Part shown: piece by piece, positions 856 through 47,578 of the stretch
How positions within the stretch are numbered: position 1 is the first letter of the stretch
Layout: each line of letters begins with the position of its first letter
Source: Candidatus Pacearchaeota archaeon
Lineage (GTDB): Archaea > Nanobdellota > Nanobdellia > Pacearchaeales > GW2011-AR1
Length of the DNA: 51,234 bases
Assembly (NCBI GenBank): GCA_023132255.1
Contig: JAGLYK010000015.1
Coordinates: forward strand, 1-51,234
Direction of reading: 5' to 3'
Program-made: the position numbers and the translations under genes
Notes under the pieces: generated by a model
What the model saw: the letters and a program-made list of their open reading frames with translations, nothing else
What the model was told of the DNA's origin: nothing
Database searches by the model: none

Positions 856-1092
856 TTAACTATTAACCAACTCAATAAATTTTTCATAATCAACATTGCA
901 ATAAAGTTTTCCATTGCAAACAGCAACAGGGGTGTCAAAATCTTCAATTCCCTGCTCTTTCGCCATTTCAATAAGTTCCCGTATATGCTCTTCTAAAATT
1001 TCCTCATCAAAATCTATTTTATTTTCTTTAAGTTTGTCGTAAAGTGCCTCGCATTTATCACAAGTTGGTTTTTTGAATAATTTCACTCTCAT
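856..1092 (-). CDS. glutaredoxin/NrdH-like small thioredoxin-fold protein
   Basis: 78 aa with a CDKC (CxxC) motif at residues 11-14. It sits between nrdD and nrdG and overlaps the nrdD 3' end by 35 nt. Confidence 0.55.
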   Translation of the reverse strand: MRVKLFKKPTCDKCEALYDKLKENKIDFDEEILEEHIRELIEMAKEQGIEDFDTPVAVCNGKLYCNVDYEKFIELVNS

Positions 1093-3214
1093 TTTGATTT
1101 GTTATATTCGAGGTTTTAAATTTTACCCTGTCTTTAAATTCTTCTCTTTTCCCAAGATTCCACTGGTTTATAGGTCTTATATAACCAACAATCCTTGAAT
1201 AAATTTCACAACCAGTTTCTTTCCCCTCAGTTTCACATTTTGGACAAAAAAGATGCTCTCCAAAAATATAACCATGAATCGGGCAAATTGAAAATGTGGG
1301 AGTTATAGTAAAATATGGAAGTTTAAACTTAGCTGAAATCTTCTTTACAAGCAATTTAACCATGTCTTTATCCAGCTTTTCGCCGACAAAAGTATGAAAA
1401 ACAGTCCCTCCAGTATATTTAGTTTGTAAAGAATCCTGATTTTCTAATGCTCTGAATAAATCTATATGAGCATCCACAGGAAGCTGGCTTGAATTTGTAA
1501 AATATGGTTCAGCACCTTGTTTTACTGCTTCCTCGTTGGCAACTATAATATCTTTATATTTTGCTTTGTTGTGTTTTGCAAACCTGTAAGTTGTACCTTC
1601 AGCAGGGGTTGCCTCTAAATTAAATATCTCTCCTGTTTCTTCTTGATATTCCCCCAATCTTTCTCTCATAAAATCTAAAACTCTTGCTGCAAAATCTTTT
1701 CCTCTTTCTGTTAATAAATTTTCTGTTTCAAAAATATTTTGAATTGCCTCGTTCATTCCAAGCAGGCCAATTGTTGAAAAATGATTTTTCCAATATTCAT
1801 TAAAAGCATTTTTAATCGTCCGCAGATAAAATTTTGAATAAGGATATAGCCCTTCTTCTGTAAATCTTTCTAATGCTTTTCTTTTAATTATCAAACTTTC
1901 TTTTGCTAAGTCCATCAAGTCGCCGAGGGTTTTAAAAAATTCTTCTTTATTTTGGCTTTCATATGCTATTTTAGGAAGATTAATAGTCACTACTCCAATT
2001 GAACCTGTAAGAGGATTTGCCCCAAACAAACCTCCCCCTCTTTTTCTTAATTCTGTTTGATTTAATCTCAACCTGCAGCACATGCTCCGTGCATCTTCTG
2101 GCTTCATATCAGAATTTACAAAATTTGAAAAATAAGGAATTCCATATTTTGCAGTCATCTCCCAAATACAATCATACTCAGGATTTTCCCAGTCAAAATC
2201 TTTTGTTATATTATATGTTGGAATAGGAAATGTGAACAACCTTCCTTTTGCATCTCCTTCCATCATCACCTCGGCAAATGCCTTATTAATCATATTCATT
2301 TCTTTTTGAAATTCGCCGTATGTTCTTTCCTGAAACTTTCCCCCAATTATCACTCGTTCTTCTTTCATATATTCTGGGATTTCTAAATCCATGGTTATAT
2401 TTGTGAAAGGAGTCTGGAAACCCACCCTTGTAGGAACTGCCATATTAAAACAAAATTCCTGAAGACATTGTTTAACTTGTTTGTAATCTAAATTATCATA
2501 TCTTACAAAAGGGGCGAGGAGAGTATCAAAATTTGAAAAAGCCTGGGCACCAGCAGTTTCTCCCTGTAATGTATAGAAAAAATTAACCAATTGCCCCAAA
2601 ACAGTTCTAAGATGTTTGGCGGGCTTTGTCTGGACTTTTCCAGGAACTCCTGTGAATCCCTGCACAAGCAAATCTTTTAAATCCCAGCCCACACAATAAG
2701 CTCCTAAAGTTCCCAAGTCATGTATATGAATATCTGTATTTTTATGGGCTCTTCTTATTTTTTCCGGATAAATTCTGTTTAGCCAATAATTTTTGACTAT
2801 TTTTTCTGAAATATAATTGTTTAATCCTTGCAGAGAAAAACCCATATTAGAATTTTCCTTTATTTTCCAGTCTTTTAATCCGACATAATCTTCAACAACC
2901 TGAATTGTATCAAATATTGCTTTTACATCCCTTAAATCCTGATGGCTTTTTCTGTAAAGAATATATGATTTTGCTGTTTTAGCATGTCTTTCTTCTATCA
3001 AAGTTTTTTCAACAATATCCTGAACTTTTTCAACATTGGGAATTCCTTTCCCAAATTCTTTTTCAATCTGCCTTATAACTAATTCTCCTAAATATTCTGC
3101 TCTTTTCTTATCTGTTCCTCCTACTGATTTAACTGCTTTCCAAATCGCAGTAATTATTTTTTCAGGCTCAAAGCCAACAATTTTCCCGTTTCTTTTGCGA
3201 ATTTTTGTGATCAT
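1058..3214 (-). CDS. nrdD: anaerobic ribonucleoside-triphosphate reductase (class III RNR)
   Basis: N-terminal ATP-cone (ITKIRKRNGKIVGFEPEKI). C-terminal Zn site (CPIHG...CPKC) and glycyl-radical motif SRIVGYIRP. 718 aa. Confidence 0.95.
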   Translation of the reverse strand: MITKIRKRNGKIVGFEPEKIITAIWKAVKSVGGTDKKRAEYLGELVIRQIEKEFGKGIPNVEKVQDIVEKTLIEERHAKTAKSYILYRKSHQDLRDVKAIFDTIQVVEDYVGLKDWKIKENSNMGFSLQGLNNYISEKIVKNYWLNRIYPEKIRRAHKNTDIHIHDLGTLGAYCVGWDLKDLLVQGFTGVPGKVQTKPAKHLRTVLGQLVNFFYTLQGETAGAQAFSNFDTLLAPFVRYDNLDYKQVKQCLQEFCFNMAVPTRVGFQTPFTNITMDLEIPEYMKEERVIIGGKFQERTYGEFQKEMNMINKAFAEVMMEGDAKGRLFTFPIPTYNITKDFDWENPEYDCIWEMTAKYGIPYFSNFVNSDMKPEDARSMCCRLRLNQTELRKRGGGLFGANPLTGSIGVVTINLPKIAYESQNKEEFFKTLGDLMDLAKESLIIKRKALERFTEEGLYPYSKFYLRTIKNAFNEYWKNHFSTIGLLGMNEAIQNIFETENLLTERGKDFAARVLDFMRERLGEYQEETGEIFNLEATPAEGTTYRFAKHNKAKYKDIIVANEEAVKQGAEPYFTNSSQLPVDAHIDLFRALENQDSLQTKYTGGTVFHTFVGEKLDKDMVKLLVKKISAKFKLPYFTITPTFSICPIHGYIFGEHLFCPKCETEGKETGCEIYSRIVGYIRPINQWNLGKREEFKDRVKFKTSNITNQNESEIIQKTNL

Positions 3215-3284
3215 TTTTAAAATTTGTAAATGAAAATCTTTGATTTACTTTTTCTTATTTTCTTAATTGTGCTTTCTACCATTT

Positions 3285-3722
3285 TTATAAATTTTTTATC
3301 TCCTGTTTAAAATCTTGAACATCCTGAAAATTTCTATAAACCGATGCAAATCTTATGTATGCAACATTATCTAATTTTTTTATTTTTTTTATTACTAACT
3401 CTCCAATAACTGAACTTTTAATTTCTTTTTTCCCTCTTCGCCTTAGTTGTTTTTCAATTTGGTTTATCATTTTATTAATTTTTTCTTTTGAAACAGCCCG
3501 TTTTTCAAAGGCCTTGTTAATCCCTCTTTCAAGTTTTTCTCTGCTGAATTTTTCTCTGCTTTTATCTTTTTTAATTACATGTAAATCGCTTTTTTCTATT
3601 TTTTCATAAGTTGTAAATCTTTTTTTGCACTTTAAGCACTCTCTTCTTCTCCTTATACCTTCAGGAGATTTTCTTTTATCAGTTACTTTTAATGCTGTGT
3701 TTAAGCAGTATGGGCAGTTCAT
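3285..3722 (-). CDS. nrdR: transcriptional repressor NrdR (zinc ribbon + ATP-cone)
   Basis: MNCPYC...CLKC zinc ribbon followed by an ATP-cone. 145 aa, directly upstream of nrdD. Confidence 0.88.
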   Translation of the reverse strand: MNCPYCLNTALKVTDKRKSPEGIRRRRECLKCKKRFTTYEKIEKSDLHVIKKDKSREKFSREKLERGINKAFEKRAVSKEKINKMINQIEKQLRRRGKKEIKSSVIGELVIKKIKKLDNVAYIRFASVYRNFQDVQDFKQEIKNL

Positions 3723-3867: not shown

Positions 3868-4812
3868 CTATTTCATTAATTCACATTTTTTGCAAACATT
3901 TTTCCTTGAAGGCTCACCGCAAATTTTGCAATATTTAATTTTAATCTTATTTTCTTCGCTTTTTTTATCTTTCACAAAAATTTTCTCAAAATTATTCAAA
4001 ATATTTTTCTTGTCTTTTTCAGACAAGGTATTTACAAAATCTCTTACTTCCCCCCTGTATGATTCTTGAGAATATTTACATTTTCCTTCAATAAAAGGTA
4101 TTTTTTTTTGAATGGCGTATTTTTTAACATCTTCTTCAAAAACATAAAATAAAGGTTTTATTCTTGGAACAAATTTCTTGTCAGAAATGTTTTTTGTAAC
4201 AGGTCCAGAACTAAAACTCATCTTCGGACTTCCTTTCAAAACATTCATCAGACAAGTCTGAGCTTGGTCGTCTAAATTATGTCCTGTTGCAATTTTATCT
4301 GCTTTTAATTTTCTTGCTGTTTTATTTAAAATCCATTTTTTAAAAACCCCGCAAACCGCACAATTATTCAATCTTTTCTTTTTTATCTTTTTCCAAACAT
4401 CTTGCATTGTTTTCCCTTGCTCTTTCTTCATATCATAAACATGCAACTTTATTCCCAGCTCCTCACAAAGTTTTTTCACCGCCCCCAGGCATTTTTTACT
4501 ATACTCGCTAATCCCCAAATCAATATACAATCCTTCAATATTATACCCAAACTTCTTCAATAAAAAAGCCGTGACAGCAGAATCTTTTCCTCCAGAAAGT
4601 GCTACTAAAATTTTTTCTTTTTTGCCCTTTGTGTTTATATCCCTTCTCACAGAGGGTACCTCGTTAGAGGTTCTCGTGCCGGGAACAAAGTGAGGCGGTA
4701 CACCCTTGGGTGTGGAAAGTTTGATTTTCTTTAATGTTTGTTTAACTTGGCTTTCTACAGACGAGTTAGCTAAAATCTTTGATTTTTGTCTGACTTGTGT
4801 TTCGAGTTCCAT
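3868..4812 (-). CDS. PP-loop ATPase, tRNA 2-thiolation family (TtuA/NcsA/TtcA-like)
   Basis: SGGKDS PP-loop, GHNLDDQAQT motif, C-terminal CKICG...CKKC zinc finger. The N-terminal part carries a repeat-derived insertion. Confidence 0.8.
   Translation of the reverse strand: MELETQVRQKSKILANSSVESQVKQTLKKIKLSTPKGVPPHFVPGTRTSNEVPSVRRDINTKGKKEKILVALSGGKDSAVTAFLLKKFGYNIEGLYIDLGISEYSKKCLGAVKKLCEELGIKLHVYDMKKEQGKTMQDVWKKIKKKRLNNCAVCGVFKKWILNKTARKLKADKIATGHNLDDQAQTCLMNVLKGSPKMSFSSGPVTKNISDKKFVPRIKPLFYVFEEDVKKYAIQKKIPFIEGKCKYSQESYRGEVRDFVNTLSEKDKKNILNNFEKIFVKDKKSEENKIKIKYCKICGEPSRKNVCKKCELMK
4641..4715 (-). repeat. 75-nt GC-rich repeat module inserted in frame in the TtuA-like CDS
   Basis: Encodes TPKGVPPHFVPGTRTSNEVPSVRRD between the KKIKL helix and the KILVALSGGKDS PP-loop. 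Contains the GGTGTACC core (4697-4704) and imperfect inverted termini GAGGCGGTACACCC / GGGTACCTC. The ACCTCTAACGAGG hairpin is shared with 39682-39694. Confidence 0.75.
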
Positions 4813-9933: not shown

Positions 9934-10012
9934 ATCCCCTCTCGTTCGACTACACTTCTTATTCCGATGACATAGACACCATCCGGGTGTGGGCGGGCGA
10001 ATGAAAATCTTC
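9934..10012 (-). repeat. intergenic copy of the mosaic repeat (M1-type with internal insert)
   Basis: Minus strand reads GAAGATTTTCATTCGCCCGCC...GTCGAACGAGAGGGGATCTTTGA-ATG. It fills the whole gap between two CDSs and ends at the start codon of 9394..9927. Confidence 0.7.
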
Positions 10013-10547
10013 ATTGGAAGATTTCCTTCACAAGTTTAATTCTCTCTCTAACTCCTAATGTCTTAGTTTTATGAGCATCTAAAACTCCTGTCTGCCCTGC
10101 ATAATTCGCAAGTTCCCAGACTGTAATTCCCAAAAGTTTCGCAGTGTTCTGCATTGAAACACCGTGCCCGTAAATCTTCGACGCCTTGTTAATGCTCGCC
10201 TTCCTAAAAACTTCCTGAATATATTTTTTCATCCCCGGAGAAGTCTTCCCAATCTCCGCACGCAATTGTTTTAAATTTTTCTTCAGCAAGTTCTCATCTT
10301 TCTTTGCACTTCTCATAACCTCATCAATCTTTCTAGTCACAACATTTAAATTCTCAACATATCCTCTCTCCAAAATCTTGCCCAAAGAATAAACAATCAC
10401 AGCAACAGCAATGTTGTCTGCATCTTGCGTCCTCGACGCAGTATTATTTGTCTGGTCACTCAACTGCTTAAGTTTCAAAGTATCTTTATTTTTCAAGGCA
10501 ACTTTTGTCTCTTCAAGAATCCTAAGAATATTTTCAACCTCTTCCAT
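10011..10547 (-). CDS. hypothetical protein (possible C-terminal HTH)
   Basis: 178-aa ORF. The segment SMQNTAKLLGITVWELANYAG looks HTH-like. Confidence 0.45.
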   Translation of the reverse strand: MEEVENILRILEETKVALKNKDTLKLKQLSDQTNNTASRTQDADNIAVAVIVYSLGKILERGYVENLNVVTRKIDEVMRSAKKDENLLKKNLKQLRAEIGKTSPGMKKYIQEVFRKASINKASKIYGHGVSMQNTAKLLGITVWELANYAGQTGVLDAHKTKTLGVRERIKLVKEIFQ

Positions 10548-15027: not shown

Positions 15028-16029
15028 ATGGAAAAAGATGTGAGGGATATGCGATTTCCGTCGGATTGCAATAGAGAAATTGCTTCACGGAACAGGAAGC
15101 AAATCAAAGATTTTCAGTCGTCCGCCGAGGACATCGAACGAAAGGGAGATTCCAAAGAACCGCCAGGTTCTTTTGTTCAGGAGCAAATCCACGACATTTT
15201 ATTCAACAGGGAAATCGGTTGGCAAGAAATCATCTACGACCTAATCAACACAGAACAGCTTGACCCGTGGGACATAAACATAACAATTCTAACTAACAAA
15301 TACCTTGAAAAAATAGAGCAATTTGAAGAAGCAGATTTCTTCATCTCAAGCAAAGTCCTTTTGGCAGCTGCACTTCTCCTTAGAATCAAATCTGAAATCC
15401 TGTTAAACACTTACATCAAAAGCATAGACGAAATCCTCTTTGGAAAAAAAGAAAAAAAGAAACATGTCCTTGAAAGAATCGAACTTGACGAAGAAATCCC
15501 AGAACTAATTCCCCGAAGCCCAATTCCTCGTTACAAAAAAGTTACATTAAAAGAATTAATTAATTCATTAAACAAAGCAATCAAAACCGAAAACAGAAGA
15601 ATCAAAAAAGAAATAATCCACAAAAACGCATTAAGGGAAACAGGAATCTTTTTGCCAAAAAGAAAAATCAACATCCGCAACAAGATAAAACAAATCTATG
15701 AAAACCTGTTAAGTCATCTTGGCGAGGATAAAGCCAGGAAAAAAATTTCTTTTACAGAATTTGCCGGAACAAGCAGGGAAGAAAAAATAGCTTGTTTTTC
15801 TCCGCTTCTGCATCTGGAAAATCAAAAAAAAATCTGGCTTGAACAGGAAGAGCATTTTGAAGAAATTCATCTCTGGCTCAAAAAAACTTATCTAAAACAT
15901 AATCCAGACCCATTTGCAGATTTAAAATACGAAATAGAAAAAGAGATAAAAACCGAGGACATCAAACGAGACAAAGAACAAAAACAAAGATTAGACAAAA
16001 TAAATAAAGATTTTGTGGAACTTATTTAA
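15028..16029 (+). CDS. scpA: segregation and condensation protein A (kleisin) with a repeat-derived N-terminus
   Basis: The core (WQEIIYDLINTEQLDPWDINITILTNKYLEKI...) is ScpA-like. There is no in-frame ATG/GTG/TTG downstream of the repeat, so the repeat must be translated. Confidence 0.75.
   Translation: MEKDVRDMRFPSDCNREIASRNRKQIKDFQSSAEDIERKGDSKEPPGSFVQEQIHDILFNREIGWQEIIYDLINTEQLDPWDINITILTNKYLEKIEQFEEADFFISSKVLLAAALLLRIKSEILLNTYIKSIDEILFGKKEKKKHVLERIELDEEIPELIPRSPIPRYKKVTLKELINSLNKAIKTENRRIKKEIIHKNALRETGIFLPKRKINIRNKIKQIYENLLSHLGEDKARKKISFTEFAGTSREEKIACFSPLLHLENQKKIWLEQEEHFEEIHLWLKKTYLKHNPDPFADLKYEIEKEIKTEDIKRDKEQKQRLDKINKDFVELI
15051..15175 (+). repeat. composite mosaic repeat (hairpin module M0 + module M1 + tail) forming ScpA codons 9-50
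   Basis: GCGATTTCCGTCGGATTGCAATAGAGAAATTGC (M0), then AAGCAAATCAAAGATTTTCAGTCGTCCGCCGAGGACATCGAACGAAAG (M1), then GGGAGATTCCAAAGAACCGCCAGGTTCTTTTG (tail). Confidence 0.85.
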
Positions 16030-25487: not shown

Positions 25488-26459
25488 ATGAAACTAACAA
25501 AAAAAGAGGCACAGAGAATATCTGAAGAATATTTCTTAGGGGAAATAAAAAAGATGGAAAAACTAGAAGGTGGAAGAAATAATTTGAACTATCTGATTAA
25601 AACCAAAAAAGGAAAATATGTGATAAGAATAATACAAAATAAACAAAACCGAGAAAGAGAATTAATACAATTAAAAGTTTTAAAATTTCTTCAAGAAAAA
25701 AATTTTCCTTATGAAGTTCCAATACCAATCAAAAATAGAGAGAAAAAAGTATTTTCTAATTGGAAAAAATATTTGCTTTGGGTTTATTCTTTTATTGAAG
25801 GAAAGACTATTGATGAGAGAAAAATTTTATCAATAAATAAGATTAAAGAGATTGCTAAAGTTTTAGCAATTTACCATAAACAAATAAGAAAATTTCAAAT
25901 AAAAAATTTAAGAAAAAATAATCCACCAAAATTTTATCTTCAAGAATATTCAAAATTAAAGAAGAAATCAGTAAAAAACAAAATAGATAAATACTTTCTA
26001 AACAACGAAGAATTTTTTGTAAGGTTTATTAAAAGGATTAATTCGCTTAAAAAAACAGGGGAAGAATTAATTGTCCATACAGATTTATCTCAAAAAAATA
26101 TTATATTTAAAAACCAGAAGATAGTAGGTATAATTGATTTTGAAGTATGGGATGTGGCTCCAAAAATTCTTGATATTGCTTACACTTCAGAATATTGTTG
26201 TAAAACAAAGAAAGGATCTAGTAAGAAGAGATTAAATATATTTTTAGAAGAATACAAGAAACACAACAAATTAACAAAAATAGAAAAAGACAATGTTCCA
26301 TTATTTATCGCTTATGATTATAGTATAGGTTTTTGGTGGAACTATACACAATATAATACAACTATTAATAACAAGCTAGATGGAATGAAAGCAATGAGAA
26401 ATAGACTTAATGATTTTTTACAACAATTTCCAGAATTAAAAAAGATTAGAAAGGTTTAA
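25488..26459 (+). CDS. aminoglycoside phosphotransferase (APH)/homoserine kinase II-like kinase
   Basis: VHTDLSQKNIIF (catalytic loop) and IIDFE (DFG-equivalent) motifs. 323 aa. Confidence 0.75.
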   Translation: MKLTKKEAQRISEEYFLGEIKKMEKLEGGRNNLNYLIKTKKGKYVIRIIQNKQNRERELIQLKVLKFLQEKNFPYEVPIPIKNREKKVFSNWKKYLLWVYSFIEGKTIDERKILSINKIKEIAKVLAIYHKQIRKFQIKNLRKNNPPKFYLQEYSKLKKKSVKNKIDKYFLNNEEFFVRFIKRINSLKKTGEELIVHTDLSQKNIIFKNQKIVGIIDFEVWDVAPKILDIAYTSEYCCKTKKGSSKKRLNIFLEEYKKHNKLTKIEKDNVPLFIAYDYSIGFWWNYTQYNTTINNKLDGMKAMRNRLNDFLQQFPELKKIRKV

Positions 26460-30406: not shown

Positions 30407-30515
30407 ATTTCCCTTGGATTGCGAGCGATTTCCGAGGCTCAACAAAGTTGAGTCATCCCAGTGGGATGGTAGGGACAAAATGAAAATAATAAATAACCTG
30501 TGTGAAGTCGGGAGG
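30407..30515 (+). repeat. two-hairpin repeat element, copy 1 (candidate 5'-leader RNA)
   Basis: 55 nt (30421-30475) are identical to 39864-39918. Hairpins are CTCAAC-aaa-GTTGAG and CATCCC-agt-GGGATG. A conserved 3' box AATAACCTGTGTGAAGTCGGGAG ends 9 nt before the ATG at 30525. Confidence 0.8.
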
Positions 30516-32368: not shown

Positions 32369-33358
32369 ATGGTGACAAAAAAGAAAACTTCCAAGAAAGT
32401 AAAAAAAATTTCTAAGAAGAAACTTCCAGTTTTAGTCAGCAAGAAGAATAAGTCAAAATCTATAAAACAAAAAAAAGTTGTGAAAAAAAAATCCACCCGA
32501 TTTCCCTCGGAGGCTCTTAAAGAAGTTGCCCACCGGAACAAAAAGAAAAAATCCAAAAAAATTAATCCAAAAGATATCGCTACTTTGAATTTAAGATCAG
32601 AACATGATATTGCAATGGATTTTGCAACAAAAGCATATAAAAAATTTAACAGAGTAATAAAATCAATCATCCTCTTTGGTTCATCAATAAAACAGACTTC
32701 AACTGCAGATTCTGACATTGACATAATAATTTTAATTGACGATGTTTCAATACACTGGGACCAAAAATTAATTGCATGGTACAGGCAAGAACTTGACAAA
32801 TTATTAAAGGCAAATCCTTATGAAAAAAGCCTGCATATTAATACAGTCAAGTTAAGCACTTGGTGGGAAGATTTAATGAGAGGCGACCCAATTATCCTAA
32901 ATATTTTAAGACAAGGGAAATCATTAATTGATCTTGCAGGATTTTTTGAACCATTAAAATATTTGTTAATCAAAGGAAAAATAAAATCCACTCCTGAAGC
33001 AATTTACAGTTGTCTTCAAAGAGCACCAGTACACATACAAAGAAGCAAGTCTGCTGAATTGAATTCTATTGAAGGTTTATACTGGGCAATGGTTGACTCT
33101 GCACATGCAGCACTCATTGCTGCAAACATTTCCCCACCTTCGCCAGAACATATTGCCCCAGAACTAAAAGAAACTTTTGTCCCTGGAAAACTAAAAATGA
33201 AATATGTTGTTTGGTACAGGGATTTACTAATTCTCCATAAGGACATCACTCATGGAAGAATCCACGACCTTAAAGGCGCAGATATAGATGAATGGCAGGA
33301 TAGAACAGAAGAATTCTTGGGAGTCATGGCGAGGTTGGTTAATAAACTTGTTAGTTAA
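32369..33358 (+). CDS. nucleotidyltransferase (Pol-beta superfamily) domain protein with a helical C-domain
   Basis: ILFGSSIKQTSTADSDIDIIILIDD (GS...DxD). Paralog of 35966..37516. The K-rich first ~85 aa may not be real, and an alternative start is MDFATKAYKK. Confidence 0.6.
   Translation: MVTKKKTSKKVKKISKKKLPVLVSKKNKSKSIKQKKVVKKKSTRFPSEALKEVAHRNKKKKSKKINPKDIATLNLRSEHDIAMDFATKAYKKFNRVIKSIILFGSSIKQTSTADSDIDIIILIDDVSIHWDQKLIAWYRQELDKLLKANPYEKSLHINTVKLSTWWEDLMRGDPIILNILRQGKSLIDLAGFFEPLKYLLIKGKIKSTPEAIYSCLQRAPVHIQRSKSAELNSIEGLYWAMVDSAHAALIAANISPPSPEHIAPELKETFVPGKLKMKYVVWYRDLLILHKDITHGRIHDLKGADIDEWQDRTEEFLGVMARLVNKLVS
32497..32545 (+). repeat. hairpin module (M0) of the mosaic repeat inside the NTase ORF
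   Basis: CCGATTTCCCTCGGAGGCTCTTAAAGAAGTTGCCCACCGGAACAAAAAG compares with the minus strand of 34838-34886, GCGATTTCCATCGGAGGCTCTTAAAGAAATCGCCCACCTGAACAAAAAG. It encodes RFPSEALKEVAHRNKK in the same frame as RFPSDCNREIASRNRK in ScpA. Confidence 0.75.
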
Positions 33359-34256: not shown

Positions 34257-34799
34257 TTATTTCTTAAACTTTTCATACAAAGCTTTAGTCTTGCCCGGGA
34301 GCTTGGACTTGATTTGCTTGAATATTTTTCTTGTAAATGCAATTGCTTTTTCATTTGCCACAGCAACGAAGAAAATCTTTGAACCTGGTTTTAAAATCGC
34401 TGCCTTTCCTGTCGCCTTGCCATAAGCCAACTGCATGCCTGTCTGCATTCTGTCTGCCCCTGCTCCTGTAAGCATTTTGTTCTCTCGCTGAATATGATGC
34501 GGAAACGGAATTACCTTAAACAAATACTGCCCTGAAAGTTCCTTGTCCAGTTTCTTATTAATAAACTGCCTGCACGCCTCAAACGCATTGTGCCGAATCT
34601 GAACCTTCTCTGTTGAAATCAAAGTCAGGGTATGTGGAAGTTTGCCATTGTTGTAAAGCCCTTCCTTGCCCATTGCAAACTTCACAATCTTCTGCGGCGG
34701 CACAGTCTTAATATACGACTTCTGCCTTCTCTTGCTAACCCGGGTAAACGGAAGAACTTTCTTCTTAGAATATGCTGTTGCTTTTCTTAAAGTTGCCAT
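34257..34799 (-). CDS. rpl10e: 50S ribosomal protein L10e (uL16)
   Basis: MATLRKATAYSKKKVLPFTRVSKRRQKSYI... is a typical L10e N-terminus and length. The ATG at 34799 is preferred over the track's TTG at 34802. Confidence 0.9.
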   Translation of the reverse strand: MATLRKATAYSKKKVLPFTRVSKRRQKSYIKTVPPQKIVKFAMGKEGLYNNGKLPHTLTLISTEKVQIRHNAFEACRQFINKKLDKELSGQYLFKVIPFPHHIQRENKMLTGAGADRMQTGMQLAYGKATGKAAILKPGSKIFFVAVANEKAIAFTRKIFKQIKSKLPGKTKALYEKFKK

Positions 34800-34883
34800 C
34801 AAAAGACACCTCGCGGTTTCTTTTGTAAACTTCCCTTTTTGTTCAGGTGGGCGATTTCTTTAAGAGCCTCCGATGGAAATCGC
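34800..34883 (-). repeat. 84-nt cassette (hairpin M0 + TATA-like box + AGGTG) abutting the L10e start codon
   Basis: About 72/84 identical (hand alignment) to 39466-39549. Minus strand reads GCGATTTC-N17-GAAATCGC...GGGAAGTTTACAAAAGAAACCGCGAGGTGTCTTTTG-ATG. Confidence 0.85.
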
Positions 34884-39464: not shown

Positions 39465-39465
39465 T

Positions 39466-39549
39466 CAAAAGACACCTTGCGGTTTCTTTTGTAAACTTCC
39501 CTCTCTGTTCAGATTAGCGATTTCTTTATTGCAATCCGATGGAAATCGC
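39466..39549 (-). repeat. 84-nt cassette (hairpin M0 + TATA-like box) abutting the tRNA-Val 5' end
   Basis: Second copy of the 34800-34883 cassette. It ends 1 nt before tRNA-Val position +1. The hairpin loop variant (GGATTGCAAT) matches the ScpA copy. Confidence 0.85.
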
Positions 39550-39615
39550 AGGGATATTGCAACTATTATTTTAGTCGCATAAATTTTATATAGCATGTGT
39601 GCTTTTAAGTTTTAC

Positions 39616-39854: not shown

Positions 39855-39955
39855 ATTTTCCCGGCGAGCGATTTCCGAGGCTCAACAAAGTTGAGTCATC
39901 CCAGTGGGATGGTAGGGAGTAAATTTAATATTAATAACCCGTGCGAAGTCGCGAG
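39855..39955 (+). repeat. two-hairpin repeat element, copy 2
   Basis: The 55-nt core 39864-39918 is identical to 30421-30475. 3' box AATAACCCGTGCGAAGTCGCGAG. Lies between tRNA-Gly and the EamA transporter gene. Confidence 0.8.
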
Positions 39956-41120: not shown

Positions 41121-42824
41121 TCAATACCCTGGCATCCCAGGCATGCCCCCTGTCATGGAATTCATGCTCCCTGTTTTATCTGTTGAAGCAATAACATCAT
41201 CAATTCTTAAAATCATAATCGCAACTTCTGACGCAGAATTAATTGCCTGACTCTTAATTTTGTACGGCTCAATAATTCTTGCTTCCAGAACATTTTCAAC
41301 TTTGTTAGTAAACAAATTAATTCCGGCATTTTTTTCCCCGGCATCATGCCTTGATTTTAATTCTGTTAAAATATCTATTGGATCAATTCCTGCATTTTCT
41401 GCCAAAGTTGTTGGTATAAATTCCAACGCAGATGCAAACTCTTCAACAGCGAGTTGTTCTCTTCCGCTTAATGACTGGCCAAAATGCCTTAGTCTGTGCG
41501 CAAGTTCAATTTCAATAGCACCTCCCCCTGGAACAACCAACCCGGTTTTCATGGAAGAGGCAACATCACCCATGCCATCTTTTAAAGCTCTTTCAGTTTC
41601 ATCAAGAACATGCTCTGTTCCGCCATGAATTAAAATTGTTAATGCTTTTGGGTTTTTGCATCCTTTAATATAAGTTAAAGTATCTTCGCCATGCTTCACT
41701 TCTTCAACAATCTGGGCATAGCCTAATTCCGGCGAAGCAAGCTCATTTAAATTACTCACGATTTTTCCCCCGGTTGCCTTGGATATTTTTTCCATATCGC
41801 TTTTTGCAACTCTTCTGCATACATAAATATTTTTTTTAGATAATAAATACTGCGCAAAATCATCAACCCCTTTCTGGCAAAAAACAACATTTGCTCCGGA
41901 CATCTCAATTTTCCCAACCATGTCTTTAATTGATTCTTCTTCCTGCTGAATAAAACTCTGCAACTGCTCAGGAGAAGAAATTGAAATTTTTGTATCTATT
42001 TCAGGATTTTTTAATTCCAAAGCAAAATCAACCAAAGCAATTTTCGCATCATAAACAACCTTCGGCATATCAGCTGAAACTTTCTCCTTGTCCAGAACAA
42101 TTCCGGAAATCAATTCTGTATCTTTAATGCTGTTCCCTTTTGATTTTTCTATTTTAATATCATTTAAATCAATTTTCCCATTATGCTGAATTTGCTTTCG
42201 TTCAATGTCCTCGGCGGACGATTGAAAATCTCCGATTTGCTTTTTCCCGAATTCAGTGAGGGAAGTTTGAAAATCTCCGATTTGCTTTACAGCCTTGACA
42301 ATAATCTCTGCGAACTTTTCTTTCAGACCCTCGGCACCTTTGCCAGTCATAGCAGTCATGGCAATTTGTTTTAAAATGTCTTCATCCTCGGGGCTAATCT
42401 TTAAAGAAATCTCCTTTAAAATTTCCTGGGTTTTTTCTGCTGCAATTCTATAGCCTTTTGTAATAATAGTTGGATGAATTTTTTTATCTAAAAGTTTTTC
42501 AGCATTTTCCAAAAGTTTTCCAGCAATCATAACTGCTGTGGTAGTTCCGTCCCCAACCTCACTTTCCTGCGTCTTTGCAATTTCTACCATCATCTTTGCG
42601 GCAGGGTGTTCAATCTGCATTTCATCTAAAATCGTCACGCCGTCGTTGGTAACAACAATATCATTTGTCGGAGAAACCAACATCTTGTCCATGCCTTTAG
42701 GACCAAGAGTAGTTTTAACAATCTCTGAAACCATCTTCGCCGCTAAAATATTATTTCTTTGGGCATCCTTGCCCATTATCCTCTGAATATCTTCTGGCAT
42801 TAGAACAACTGGTTTTTCTGTCAT
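41121..42824 (-). CDS. ths: thermosome subunit (group II chaperonin) carrying a 30-aa repeat-derived insertion
   Basis: [34 protein letters not shown] motifs and a GGMPGMPGY tail. The extra segment is [30 protein letters not shown]. Confidence 0.95.
42189..42287 (-). repeat. tandem 2 x 45-nt repeat units in frame inside the thermosome gene, bounded by AAGCAAAT(C/T)
   Basis: AAGCAAAT(C/T) occurs at 42279-42287, 42234-42242 and 42189-42197, a 45-nt period. Unit B is 44/48 identical to ScpA 15097-15144. Confidence 0.9.
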
Positions 42825-47295: not shown

Positions 47296-47376
47296 TCTCC
47301 TCGTGAAATCGCTCTCGTTTGACGACCTTGGCGGACGAATGAAAATCTTTGATTTGCTTGGACTTGAATTCTGGGG
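47296..47376 (-). repeat. intergenic copy of the mosaic repeat (M1 followed by the start of M0)
   Basis: Minus strand reads CCCCAGAATTCAAGTCC-AAGCAAATCAAAGATTTTCATTCGTCCGCCAAGGTCGTCAAACGAG-AGCGATTTCACGAGG. Confidence 0.8.
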
Positions 47377-47445
47377 ATGAAAAATCTTAGGCATTAACCT
47401 GTTTAAATCTGGAAAAATATAATGAGGTCTCGCGACCCCATATTA

Positions 47446-47578
47446 TCCCTCCGCCCAGATTTGAACTGGGGATCTCCCGGGTTCTGTTATGGCTTTTGGG
47501 GTTTCATAGTAATCATTATTGAATCTCCACCTTAGTTATTAACTACAGCCAGGCGCTCTACCACTGAGCTACGAAGGG
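47446..47578 (-). tRNA. tRNA-Tyr (GTA) with a 61-nt intron at the canonical 37/38 position
   Basis: C1-G72 acceptor CCCTTCG/CGGAGGG, D arm GCTC-AGTGGTA-GAGC, anticodon stem CCTGG/CCGGG, loop CTGTAG|intron|C, T arm CCCAG-TTCAAAT-CTGGG. Intron is about 47482-47542. Anticodon-intron helix CTGT/ACAG. Confidence 0.8.

What the first reader, a model, noticed from the sequence alone, without database searches (positions are those of the whole stretch)
42189..42287. Essential thermosome gene carries an in-frame 2 x 45-nt repeat insertion with boundary duplication
The coding strand reads as follows. GTA-AAGCAAATCGGAGATTTTCAA-ACTTCCCTCACTGAATTCGGGAAA | AAGCAAATCGGAGATTTTCAA-TCGTCCGCCGAGGACATTGAACGA | AAGCAAATTCAGCATAATGGG. 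These are two 45-nt units sharing their first 21 nt, followed by a third AAGCAAAT, which looks like a target-site duplication or unit boundary.

The protein reads AVKQI[[30 protein letters not shown]][15 protein letters not shown]. From my recollection of group II chaperonin sequences, the AVKQV-type helix runs after a few residues into the (D/N)GK..VDL.NIK.EKK segment. That makes about 30 residues extra.

Unit B is 44/48 identical to ScpA nt 15097-15144 and is read in the same frame ([12 protein letters not shown]). Related copies lie in noncoding DNA at 47296-47376 and 9934-10012.
Basis: partly seen in the sequence, partly recalled or inferred. Interest (0 to 1): 0.85.

Follow-up and report, generated by a model that had tools for sequence, protein, structure and literature searches.

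The report
Dispersed mini-repeat inserted in chaperonin gene
The single-copy-looking chaperonin (thermosome) gene of this tiny DPANN archaeon carries two tandem 45-base copies of a short repeat. [quoted passage not shown]

Summary
The thermosome gene (41121-42824, minus strand, 567 aa) contains exactly 90 extra in-frame bases, as 2 x 45 nt. Both units start AAGCAAATCGGAGATTTTCAA and are followed by the native AAGCAAAT. Of 119 Pacearchaeota orthologues, 113 lack any insert, as do the solved group II chaperonins. Six orthologues carry one related unit at the same site. With the window's protein, the insert-bearing proteins fall in six separate lineages.

The insert belongs to a dispersed family I call "Y". 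It has a conserved 5' tail, AAGYAAATC-NNN-GATTTTCA, followed by a hairpin, TCGTCCG-variable-CGAACGA. Y also lies in frame in ScpA, a YchF-like GTPase, ribosomal protein S6e, an Elp3-like protein and probably a PP-loop ATPase. Empty sites exist in orthologues. It also occurs just upstream of start codons and next to tRNA genes.

It has no terminal inverted repeats, no splicing (BHB) motif and no ribosome-hop signature. AlphaFold gives a low-confidence loop between a confident helix and strand.

Best reading: an RPE-like repeat translated as a tolerated loop. How it spreads is unknown. Copies usually sit just 5' of sequence resembling the element's own start. This is a new variant of a known kind, of moderate interest.

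The parts
41121..42824 (-). Thermosome (group II chaperonin) gene, 567 aa, host of the insert
   Evidence: ORF. PDB hits at E 1e-180 to Mm-cpn and Thermococcus thermosome. PF00118 and 119 Pacearchaeota orthologues at 76-84% identity.
42243..42287 (-). Y unit A (45 nt, encodes [15 protein letters not shown]). It has a divergent stem, TTCCC/GGGAA, and resembles the 51-nt subfamily seen in other thermosome and YchF inserts.
   Evidence: The fold is weak (-5.4 kcal/mol, z +0.5).
42198..42242 (-). Y unit B (45 nt, encodes [15 protein letters not shown]). Its 5' 21 nt are identical to unit A. Its 3' 24 nt match the ScpA copy at 23/24.
   Evidence: Covariance model 62.8 bits, E 2e-10.
42190..42197 (-). 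Native AAGCAAAT (K-Q-I codons), present in empty-site orthologues and identical to the first 8 nt of the element
   Evidence: Empty site in L003: GTTAAGCAAATC|CAAACC..
15097..15141 (+). Y copy in the N-terminal extension of ScpA, nested inside repeat module X. It is in the same reading frame as the thermosome units.
   Evidence: 66 bits. The Pfam ScpA domain starts only at aa 72. The X copy in L017 lacks it: GGAACAGG|AAGGGAGATT.
47315..47359 (-). Y copy in noncoding DNA, 86 nt downstream of an intron-containing tRNA and next to a degenerate copy of its T-arm
   Evidence: (66.3 bits).
9939..10028 (-). Y copy with a long (about 45 nt) insertion in the hairpin loop. It ends 11 nt before the ATG of the His_Phos_1 gene, and its 5' end supplies the last codons and stop of the upstream ORF.
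   Evidence: (35.5 bits).
3212..3250 (-). Y 5' tail (AAGTAAATCAAAGATTTTCA) without the GC-rich hairpin, directly upstream of the nrdD start codon
   Evidence: 32 bits, E 8e-4..

Best explanation
The 90 bases are two tandem copies of a short (45-54 nt), relatively GC-rich, non-autonomous dispersed repeat, which I call 'Y', of Pacearchaeota/Woesearchaeota-type DPANN archaea.

Anatomy: a strongly conserved 5' tail, AAGYAAATC-NNN-GATTTTCA, followed by a hairpin with a conserved base (TCGTCCG...CGAACGA, with a conserved C.A mismatch) and a freely variable top.

Copies sit in the sense orientation of the local gene in almost every case. The forward frames are largely stop-free. A copy landing in a tolerant part of a protein therefore stays in frame and is translated. 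In the thermosome this adds 2 x 15 hydrophilic residues as a flexible loop, between the last helix of the first intermediate-domain segment and the strand DLNDIKIEK.

Shown here:
- The region is an insertion relative to orthologues.
- It belongs to a dispersed family.
- Empty sites exist for four host loci.
- The same kind of unit lies in frame in five or six unrelated proteins.

Inferred:
- The insert is translated and nearly neutral.
- Spread is at the DNA level. New copies land immediately 5' of sequence resembling the element's own start (AAGCAAAT in the thermosome, AAGCAAAC/AAGCCCAC in YchF, AAGGGAGA in module X, GAGCGATT near tRNAs). This points to microhomology-guided copy-choice or recombination, or to an unidentified site-selective enzyme.
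- An insertion regenerates the AAGCAAAT site, which explains tandem units. Tandems are also seen in L006 and L137.
- Unit A is probably the older resident copy. Unit B is younger and was partly homogenised with A at its 5' half.
For: Insertion status:
- 113 of 119 orthologues lack any insert, and none has two units. PDB chaperonins also lack it.
- The closest orthologue has the empty site.
- Among about 73 species-representative loci, only 2 are filled.

Dispersed family:
- The 28-mer AAGCAAATCAAAGATTTTCATTCGTCCG is identical in four different genomes.
- The covariance model finds 6 copies in the window's 51 kb, but only about 14 in 1.25 Mb of related genomes.
- Further copies come from the collection scans.

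In-frame hosts and their empty sites:
- YchF-like GTPase: filled in L015 and L132, empty in L053.
- Ribosomal protein S6e tail: filled in L008, empty in L003.
- ScpA N-terminus: filled in the window; the corresponding site in L017's X module is empty.
- Elp3-like protein: L136, in a different reading frame.
- Sources.

Sequence and structure properties:
- Hairpin pairing with covariation: 69.6% of cells paired against 61% in shuffles, 18 double-change cells against 7.3, 0 of 500 shuffles as high.
- Forward frames are stop-free in 11-14 of 18 copies against about 5.5 expected. Reverse frames show no excess overall (8, 0 and 6 of 18 against about 6.5).
- Y copies are 94% identical between genomes whose thermosome genes are 82% identical, and 65% at third codon positions.
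- Hairpin subfamilies of thermosome inserts are matched by non-thermosome copies. Unit B resembles the ScpA and S6e copies. L001 resembles the L064 5'UTR copy. L141 and L142 resemble the YchF inserts.

Protein context:
- AlphaFold gives pLDDT below 50 for residues 185-216, flanked by helix 165-184 and strand 223-228.
- This loop varies in length naturally: Thermococcus has 6-7 extra residues there.
- Degraded inserts (L043, L143) have lost the element's features but remain in frame.
Against: - No mobilising enzyme was found. No transposase, integrase or HUH domain appears among the Pfam-annotated genes of the window.
- There are no terminal inverted repeats and no consistent target-site duplication.
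- Every thermosome insert starts with GGA/GGR (Gly) after AAGCAAAT, where non-thermosome copies have AAA, ATA, GTA or AGA. This argues for common descent, or allele exchange, of the thermosome inserts rather than six independent insertions.
- Eleven other AAGCAAAT sites in the window are empty.
- Predicted folding energies of most copies are no better than shuffles. Only the L005 and L055 types stand out.
- Copy number outside this genome is low.
- Strong conservation, sense orientation and positions just upstream of start codons would also fit a functional cis-element.
- There are no expression or proteomic data.
Confidence: 0.68

Rival explanations
1. The thermosome insert arose once, or very few times, early in Pacearchaeota as a lineage-specific loop. 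It is inherited vertically, or passed between thermosome alleles by homologous recombination. It is repeatedly lost by precise deletion between the flanking AAGCAAAT repeats. The similarity to copies elsewhere reflects ectopic gene conversion, or even copies derived from the thermosome, rather than repeated insertion into it.
For: - All six thermosome insert lineages share GG(A)(G/A)ATTTTCA with a Gly codon that non-thermosome copies lack.
- The two YchF inserts likewise share (A/G)TA.
- Flanking 8-nt direct repeats would allow clean loss.
- All Y copies begin with the thermosome's own K-Q-I codons, AAGCAAATC.
- Inserts of very different decay states exist (L043, L143).
Against: - Six scattered lineages among 120 sequences would need dozens of independent precise losses.
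- Hairpin halves of different thermosome inserts belong to different subfamilies, each with non-thermosome counterparts in other genomes.
- Unit B is 23/24 identical in its hairpin half to a copy 27 kb away in the same genome.
- Y occurs in genomes whose thermosome site is empty: L008 and L041 come from the same MAG.
Confidence: 0.17
2. Y is primarily a functional cis-acting element: a promoter, a 5'-UTR or leader hairpin, or a protein-binding site. It is kept upstream of genes and tRNAs. The coding copies, including the thermosome one, are incidental by-products or have an RNA-level role such as local mRNA structure or regulation of a heat-shock gene.
For: - Many copies lie immediately upstream of start codons in the sense orientation: rpl15e in three loci, nrdD, His_Phos, L055, L064 and L044.
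- In hairpin-less variants the invariant UUUCAU can pair with AUGAAA at the start codon (L055 z = -2.6).
- There is a 28-nt identity across genomes.
- AAATC-NNN-GATTT is a small palindrome kept even with a 7-nt spacer (L040).
- G-U pairs occur on the sense strand.
Against: - The downstream genes are unrelated, so there is no obvious regulon.
- Copies also lie downstream of tRNAs, inside ORFs in two different frames, in tandem, nested in other repeats and, in L017/L026, antisense to the nearest gene.
- There is no Rfam match.
- Most folds are no better than shuffles.
- The nrdD variant does not fold convincingly (z +0.3).
Confidence: 0.1
3. The insert is not translated. It is either removed from the mRNA (an archaeal bulge-helix-bulge intron, as in cbf5) or skipped by the ribosome (a T4 gene 60 or mitochondrial 'byp'-type hop between the matching AAG-CAA-AUC and AAG-CAA-AUU sites).
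For: - There are identical 8-nt sequences at both borders, a hairpin in between, and GC-rich short inserts in an AT-rich genome.
- This superficially resembles byps, as summarised in PMC8211752.
- Y is associated with tRNA genes, one of them intron-bearing.
Against: - No bulge-helix-bulge motif gives an in-frame 45- or 90-nt excision. The best candidates would remove 56 or 101 nt.
- No stop codon follows any candidate take-off codon, which is a defining feature in PMC8211752.
- All eight thermosome units seen are multiples of 3 without stops. Decayed inserts keep the frame while losing the hairpin.
- In ScpA no start codon exists downstream of Y, so it must be read through.
Confidence: 0.03
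4. The tandem is an assembly artefact, for example a chimeric join of two strain variants that each carry one unit.
For: - This is a metagenome-assembled genome.
- The units share a 21-nt exact repeat.
- The records may derive from the same reads.
Against: - The A-to-B junction (…TTCGGGAAA|AAGCAAATCGGAG) contains a discriminating C that would not exist in single-unit alleles. The junction k-mers must therefore be in the reads.
- The identical protein occurs on three contig records that break at different places.
- Single-unit inserts at the same site occur in independent samples.
Confidence: 0.02

Closest known systems
Rickettsia palindromic elements (RPEs; Ogata et al. 2000, 2002, as summarised in PMC10969869)
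   Same: - Short, non-autonomous dispersed repeats with hairpin potential.
- Found both between genes and in frame inside unrelated housekeeping genes of a reduced, AT-rich genome.
- Absent from orthologues.
- Placed where the protein tolerates an extra surface segment.
- No recognisable transposase.
   Different: - Y is three times shorter (45-54 nt against about 100-150).
- It has one hairpin plus a conserved single-stranded tail, rather than a long palindrome.
- It occurs in archaea.
- It forms tandems and nests in other repeat modules.
- It sits next to sequence resembling its own 5' end.
- The same thermosome site is occupied in six lineages.
- There is no sequence similarity to RPEs.
Palindromic repeats with coding potential in Methanocaldococcus jannaschii (Suyama, Lathe and Bork 2005; recalled from memory, not found in the searchable library)
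   Same: An archaeal precedent for short structured repeats that occur inside ORFs without breaking them.
   Different: A different phylum and a different sequence. I could not check details. No chaperonin insertion or site recurrence is known to me.
MITEs, REP/BIME elements and IS200/IS605-derived palindrome-associated elements
   Same: - Small, structured, multi-copy and non-autonomous.
- Mosaic combinations of modules (Y with X, Z and the GAGCGATTTCGTGGTA module) recall BIMEs.
- The lack of TIRs and TSDs, and the orientation bias, recall IS200/IS605 and REP-RAYT systems.
   Different: - There are no terminal inverted repeats and no fixed TSD, so Y is not a classical MITE.
- REPs are extragenic.
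- No Y1/HUH transposase or RAYT was seen. Only 51 kb plus flanks was examined.
- Insertion is 5' of an AAG-type sequence, rather than 3' of a fixed tetranucleotide.
Translational bypass elements (T4 gene 60; 'byps' of Magnusiomyces mitochondria; PMC8211752)
   Same: GC-richer inserts of 27-55 nt in coding regions of an AT-rich genome, with matching codons at both borders, an internal hairpin and mobility.
   Different: There is no stop codon or frameshift inside Y, and nothing after the take-off codon. The frame and length are maintained, so ordinary read-through translation suffices.

Membership tests
Group II chaperonin (thermosome/CCT), for the host gene | Full-length homology to Cpn60/TCP-1 (PF00118) and to solved thermosomes | tested here: met
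   (E 1e-180 to 3kfb and 1q3r, with the alignment broken only at the insert). (PF00118, orthologues at 76-84% identity).
RPE-like in-frame selfish repeat | Multi-copy dispersed family present in both intergenic DNA and ORFs | tested here: met
   There are 6 copies in the window (7 counting a degenerate one) and 20 or more distinct copies in other genomes.
RPE-like in-frame selfish repeat | Inserted in frame in several unrelated proteins and absent from their orthologues | tested here: met
   - Thermosome.
- YchF-like GTPase.
- S6e.
- ScpA.
- Elp3-like protein.
RPE-like in-frame selfish repeat | Palindromic or hairpin-forming sequence | tested here: inconclusive
   Pair counts and covariation exceed shuffles. 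However, the minimum free energies of most copies, including both thermosome units, are not better than shuffles.
RPE-like in-frame selfish repeat | Insert lies at the protein surface and is compatible with the fold | tested here: inconclusive
   AlphaFold gives a low-confidence loop (pLDDT 27-44) between a confident helix and strand. Homologues vary in length at this loop. Solvent exposure in the 16-mer was not computed.
Classical MITE | Terminal inverted repeats | tested here: not met
   By direct reading, the 5' end AAGCAAATCA and the reverse complement of the 3' end, CTTTCGTTCG, share nothing.
Classical MITE | Fixed-length target-site duplication | tested here: not met
   The border repeats are 8 nt (thermosome), 7 or 4 nt (YchF), 3 nt (module X), 2 nt (L017) and 14-15 nt (tRNA-Leu). 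They are part of the element's own 5' end.
IS200/IS605- or RAYT-mobilised palindromic element | Y1/HUH transposase in the genome and a fixed short target 5' of the element | not tested
   Only the window and locus flanks were annotated, and none was seen. The whole MAG was not available.
Archaeal BHB intron | Bulge-helix-bulge motif (3-nt bulges, 4-bp helix) at the two splice sites giving an in-frame excision | tested here: not met
   The custom scan found only weak candidates, removing 56, 101, 53... nt.
Translational bypass (hop) element | Take-off codon immediately followed by a stop codon and hairpin, with a matching landing codon | tested here: not met
   Matching codons are present, but the next codon is GGA and no stop occurs in frame anywhere in the 90 nt. 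Definition taken from PMC8211752.
Any curated RNA family (Rfam 15) | Covariance-model match | tested here: not met
   Only tRNAs reach the threshold. Nothing appears at E up to 10 around the 47-kb copy.

The most novel reading that the evidence does not exclude
Y is an actively mobile, ultra-small (45-nt) element of DPANN archaea. It homes to sites resembling its own 5' end (AAGCAAAT) by base-pairing or microhomology, possibly as single-stranded DNA or through an RNA-dependent step, which would explain the near-universal sense orientation. Insertion regenerates its own target, so it builds tandems. It repeatedly remodels loops and termini of core proteins such as thermosome, YchF, S6e, ScpA and Elp3. 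This would be a new mechanistic class of mobile DNA, not a decayed MITE. A still more exotic sub-reading, that some copies are skipped by ribosomes, is not strictly excluded but is unlikely (about 3%).
Probability: 0.15. Interest if true: 0.8.

Novelty: new variant of a known kind. Interest (0 to 1): 0.55.

Why it matters
DPANN archaea have minimal genomes, and insertions in a core chaperonin are unexpected there. A repeat family that inserts in frame into thermosome, a translation GTPase, a ribosomal protein, a condensin subunit and Elp3 shows three things:
- Selfish or semi-selfish DNA shapes protein loops and termini even in these streamlined symbionts.
- It extends the Rickettsia "selfish DNA in genes" phenomenon to Archaea.
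- It offers natural markers (filled versus empty sites) for population genetics of uncultivated lineages.

The same thermosome site is occupied in six lineages. Target and element 5' end resemble each other. Together these make the mechanism of spread directly testable. Practically, such modules create spurious N-terminal extensions and odd gene models in MAG annotation.

Tried and rejected
- **BHB-intron hypothesis.** A custom scan of the thermosome region found no motif giving an in-frame 45- or 90-nt excision.
- **Ribosome-hop hypothesis.** No stop follows the take-off codon, and the frame is always kept.
- **Simple tandem duplication.** The second halves of A and B are only about 45% identical, whereas B matches a copy 27 kb away at 23/24.
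- **Known RNA family.** None was found.
- **Viral or plasmid origin.** Both DNA patterns gave 0 hits in IMG/VR.
- **Proteome-wide search for other host proteins using the encoded peptide.** An 83-aa concatenate gave 310 word-sharing candidates but none at E <= 10, so this was uninformative.
- **Unrelated pattern hits.** The Nitrospira, Bacillota and ABC-transporter hits are unrelated coding coincidences without the element's anatomy.
- **AAGCAAAT as a sufficient target.** This is rejected, because 11 other sites in the window are empty.
- **Integron attC or dif-like recombination site.** I considered this from the architecture, but no R'/R'' consensus or 11-bp arms are visible. It was not pursued.
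- **Thermodynamic support for the hairpin.** It is weak in most copies, so 'structured' rests on covariation only.
Full report
**1. The observation**

The window is about 32% G+C. It comes from a Pacearchaeota-type DPANN archaeon. The best protein relatives are annotated Pacearchaeota, Nanoarchaeota or Woesearchaeota. The same DNA is in GCA_030630265.1 and in ENA ERZ23498622.

The ORF 41121-42824 (minus strand) encodes a 567-aa group II chaperonin. Read on the coding strand:
- 42287-42243 and 42242-42198 are two 45-nt units.
- Both start AAGCAAATCGGAGATTTTCAA.
- The native AAGCAAAT follows at 42197-42190.
- The 21-mer is far beyond chance: 4 matches against 0.02 expected.

Unit B is 44/48 identical to 15097-15144, in the 5' part of the ScpA ORF, and is read in the same frame. 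Related copies lie at 47359-47315 and 10028-9939. The only differences are slightly different limits for the two noncoding copies.

**2. It is an insertion**

HMMER alignments to solved chaperonins break exactly here. Query residues 184 to 213 correspond to a single position in Mm-cpn 3kfb.

In a MAFFT alignment of the 120 best database proteins, 113 read ...AVKQI|[14 protein letters not shown] with nothing in between. The closest orthologue (P0002, 88.6% identical outside the insert) has the empty site GTTAAGCAAATC|CAAACC. Among about 73 species-representative genomes, only two are filled.

The identical 567-aa protein is recorded on three contigs that break at different places. The NCBI contig matches the window at 99.995%. 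The A-to-B junction contains a base that single-unit alleles would not have. An assembly artefact is therefore unlikely, although reads were not available.

**3. The same site is occupied elsewhere**

Six other orthologues carry one related unit at exactly this position:
- P0110: GDFHSSESTQSFER
- P0048: GDFHSSVSEIGTER
- P0065: GNFQSSASQEGSEG
- P0068: GDYYSTYEEP
- P0007 and P0016: GNF(Y/H).SNSTQP.DQN

In a neighbour-joining tree, the seven proteins (including the window's) fall in six lineages. Each is closer to an insert-free protein (80-89% identity) than to another insert-bearing one (75-84%).

At the DNA level, the younger inserts keep the element's features, for example L001: AAGCAAATCGGAGATTTTCATTCGTCTG...TTTGAACGA|AAGCAAGTT. 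The inserts in L043 and L143 are decayed but still in frame.

**4. What the unit is**

Pattern scans of the genome and metagenome collections, plus a covariance model, recovered the same element in other DPANN genomes. I call it Y.

Its anatomy (alignment A1):
- A conserved tail, AAGYAAATC-NNN-GATTTTCA. GATTTTCA is invariant, and AAATC/GATTT form a small palindrome.
- A hairpin with a conserved base, TCGTCCG/CGAACGA, containing a conserved C.A mismatch.
- A hairpin top that varies from 10 to about 55 nt.

Evidence on the hairpin is mixed:
- Pair counts support it: 69.6% paired against 61% in shuffles, 18 double-change cells against 7.3, and 0 of 500 shuffles as high. Slid controls give 26-42%.
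- Folding energies of most copies, including both thermosome units, are not better than shuffles. The structure is therefore supported by covariation only.

There are no terminal inverted repeats, no Rfam match and no copy in IMG/VR.

Y is 44-48% G+C in a 32% genome. The window holds 6 model hits in 51 kb, plus one degenerate copy. About 1.25 Mb of related genomes holds about 14. This suggests a lineage-specific expansion.

**5. Where Y sits**

In frame inside proteins:
- Thermosome.
- A YchF-like GTPase, in L015 and L132: ...DVEG[KQI(I/V)DFHSSA...ER]K(Q/P)T.... The empty site in L053 reads GAAGGG|AAACCAACA.
- The C-terminal tail of ribosomal protein S6e (L008; empty in L003, L042, L092).
- The N-terminal extension of ScpA in the window.
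- An Elp3-like radical-SAM protein (L136), in another frame (SKSEIFIRPS).
- A degenerate copy in the N-terminal extension of a PP-loop ATPase (window, about 4790-4750).
- Sources.

In ScpA the native ATG seen in an orthologue (L055, MDSKE...) is missing. No start codon lies between Y and the conserved domain, so Y must be translated there.

In noncoding DNA:
- Directly upstream of start codons: rpl15e in L006, L122 and L123; nrdD and a His_Phos gene in the window; L055; L064; L044.
- 70-110 nt downstream of tRNA genes, beside degenerate T-arm copies: window 47 kb, L127, L135, L139, L131.
- Upstream of two tRNA-Leu genes, where the first 14-15 nt of the tRNA are duplicated (L005, L040).
- Sources.

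Other properties:
- Nearly all copies are in the sense orientation of the adjacent or host gene. The L017/L026 type is the exception.
- Forward frames are stop-free about twice as often as in shuffles. Reverse frames show no excess.
- Tandem Y-Y also occurs in L006 and L137.

**6. Borders**

Define the element as AAGYAAATC...CGAACGA. The DNA immediately 3' of it then reads:
- AAGCAAAT in the thermosome.
- AAGCAAAC or AAGCCCAC in YchF.
- AAGGGAGA in module X. The empty site in L017 reads GGAACAGG|AAGGGAGATT.
- GAGCGATT in tRNA flanks.
- AACCTGGC in L017. The window itself supplies that empty site, CAAAAG|AACCTGG.
- Sources.

The 'boundary duplication' is therefore the element's own start meeting a similar native sequence. 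It is not a fixed-length target-site duplication. Eleven other AAGCAAAT sites in the window are empty, so the sequence is not sufficient for insertion.

**7. History of the tandem**

Unit A (…ACTTCCCTCACTGAATTCGGGAAA) resembles the 51-nt subfamily found in the L141 and L142 thermosome inserts and in the YchF inserts (…CTAGTGAATTGGGAAGCGAACGA). Relative to them it has a 6-nt shortening.

Unit B's hairpin half is 23/24 identical to the ScpA copy in the same genome. It is about 94% identical to the S6e copy of another genome whose thermosome site is empty. B's first 21 nt are identical to A's.

I infer an older resident unit (A) and a younger second unit (B). B was either inserted into the regenerated AAGCAAAT site or made by duplication, and gene conversion then homogenised one half.

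All thermosome inserts share a Gly codon (GGA) where other copies have AAA, ATA, GTA or AGA. The thermosome inserts may therefore share ancestry or be exchanged between alleles. I do not claim six independent insertions.

**8. Consequence for the protein**

AlphaFold2 was run with a 46-sequence alignment (mean pLDDT 67.5). Residues 185-216 come out below pLDDT 50, with ten-residue block means of 27-44. They lie between a confident helix (165-184) and the strand 223-228.

This loop already varies in length among solved chaperonins. From general knowledge of thermosome architecture, it is the first intermediate-domain segment, 25-30 residues before the apical domain. Exposure in the assembled ring was not computed.

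The rest of the protein is under strong conservation (89% identity to P0002; 65% identity at third codon positions). The gene is clearly functional.

**9. Alternatives**

- RNA splicing by the tRNA endonuclease is not supported.
- Ribosome hopping lacks its defining stop codon. It also conflicts with frame maintenance in decayed copies.
- A purely regulatory role fits the 5'-UTR copies and the strong conservation. It does not fit the coding, nested, tandem and tRNA-flanking copies.
- A single ancient thermosome loop with many losses is the main rival for the thermosome site itself.

**10. Comparison and novelty**

The closest known phenomenon is the Rickettsia palindromic elements, which are in-frame selfish repeats in unrelated genes (PMC10969869). 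An archaeal precedent in M. jannaschii is recalled from memory only.

Y differs in several ways:
- Size.
- Architecture (tail plus one hairpin).
- Border behaviour.
- Tandem and nested arrangement.
- Host phylum.

My literature searches found no description of such elements in DPANN. I rate it a new variant of a known kind, with interest 0.55.

Noticed in passing
window 15049-15096 (+), 39505-39550 (-), 34835-34882 (-), 32498-32545 (+); also L017 and L026: A second repeat module, 'X': (A)TGCGATTTCC...variable hairpin...CGGAACAGGAAG. Its stem GCGATTTC/GAAATCGC shows a compensatory change (GCGGTTTC/GAAACCGC) in L026. X sits upstream of ScpA in both the window and L017, with conserved ends but a different middle. 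X supplies the ATG used by the window's ScpA ORF.
   Followed up: partly
window 4618-4712 (-) and L008 1244-1338 (-): Module 'Z' (about 95 nt, 89% identical between two different genomes). It is in frame in the N-terminal extension of a PP-loop ATPase here and in the C-terminal tail of ribosomal protein S6e in L008. A fragment (GGCACGAGAAC.TCT.ACGAGGTA) also lies in the Elp3-like ORF of L136, just upstream of its Y copy.
   Followed up: partly
window 30421-30514 and 39864-39955; 34799-34834 and 39465-39504: Further GC-rich repeats. 'D11' is 97% identical over 61 nt and starts GCGAGCGATTTCC. One copy is 44 nt downstream of tRNA-Gly and the other is upstream of a 601-aa ORF. 'W' abuts the 5' end of tRNA-Val and the start of the L10e/L16 gene. 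A related GAGCGATTTCGTGGTA module flanks Y on either side in L127, L131, L135, L139 and at window 47 kb.
   Followed up: no
window 15028-16029, 3868-4812, 32369-33358: Three ORFs have N-terminal extensions made of repeat modules. Their Pfam domains start only at aa 72 (ScpA), 67 (PP-loop) and 92 (NTP_transf_2). Gene models in this genome may be systematically lengthened or altered by the repeats.
   Followed up: partly
L005 7628-7700 (-) and L040 121-190 (-): Upstream of two different tRNA-Leu genes, Y is preceded by an exact copy of the first 14-15 nt of that same tRNA (TGCGGAGATGCCGGA; GCGAGGGTGCCGGA). This resembles an att-site or long target duplication and is unexplained.
   Followed up: no
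window 47446-47578 (-) and 47360-47445: A tRNA with an intron of about 60 nt, found by Rfam but missed by ARAGORN. Downstream are a degenerate copy of its T-arm (CCCCAGAATTCAAGTCC) immediately before Y, and a copy of its 3' end (GTGGAGGGATA) about 100 nt after Y.
   Followed up: no
window 3285-3722 (-) and 1058-3214 (-): A bacterial-type NrdR repressor (Zn-ribbon plus ATP-cone) next to an anaerobic ribonucleotide reductase, NrdD. The Y 5' tail lies between them, directly before the nrdD ATG.
   Followed up: no
L055 15455-15506; L044 18916-18974; window 3212-3250: In hairpin-less 5'-UTR variants of Y, the invariant UUUCAU can pair with AUGAAA at the start codon of the downstream gene. This is possible start-codon sequestration. 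L055 folds at z = -2.6, but the nrdD copy does not stand out.
   Followed up: partly
whole window versus public records: The window joins two public records. The end of ENA scaffold_22 corresponds to window position 25648. The start of NCBI contig DAOVNK010000001.1 corresponds to window position 25618. The window therefore stems from a third record of the same population, and there is one mismatch in 20 kb.
   Followed up: partly
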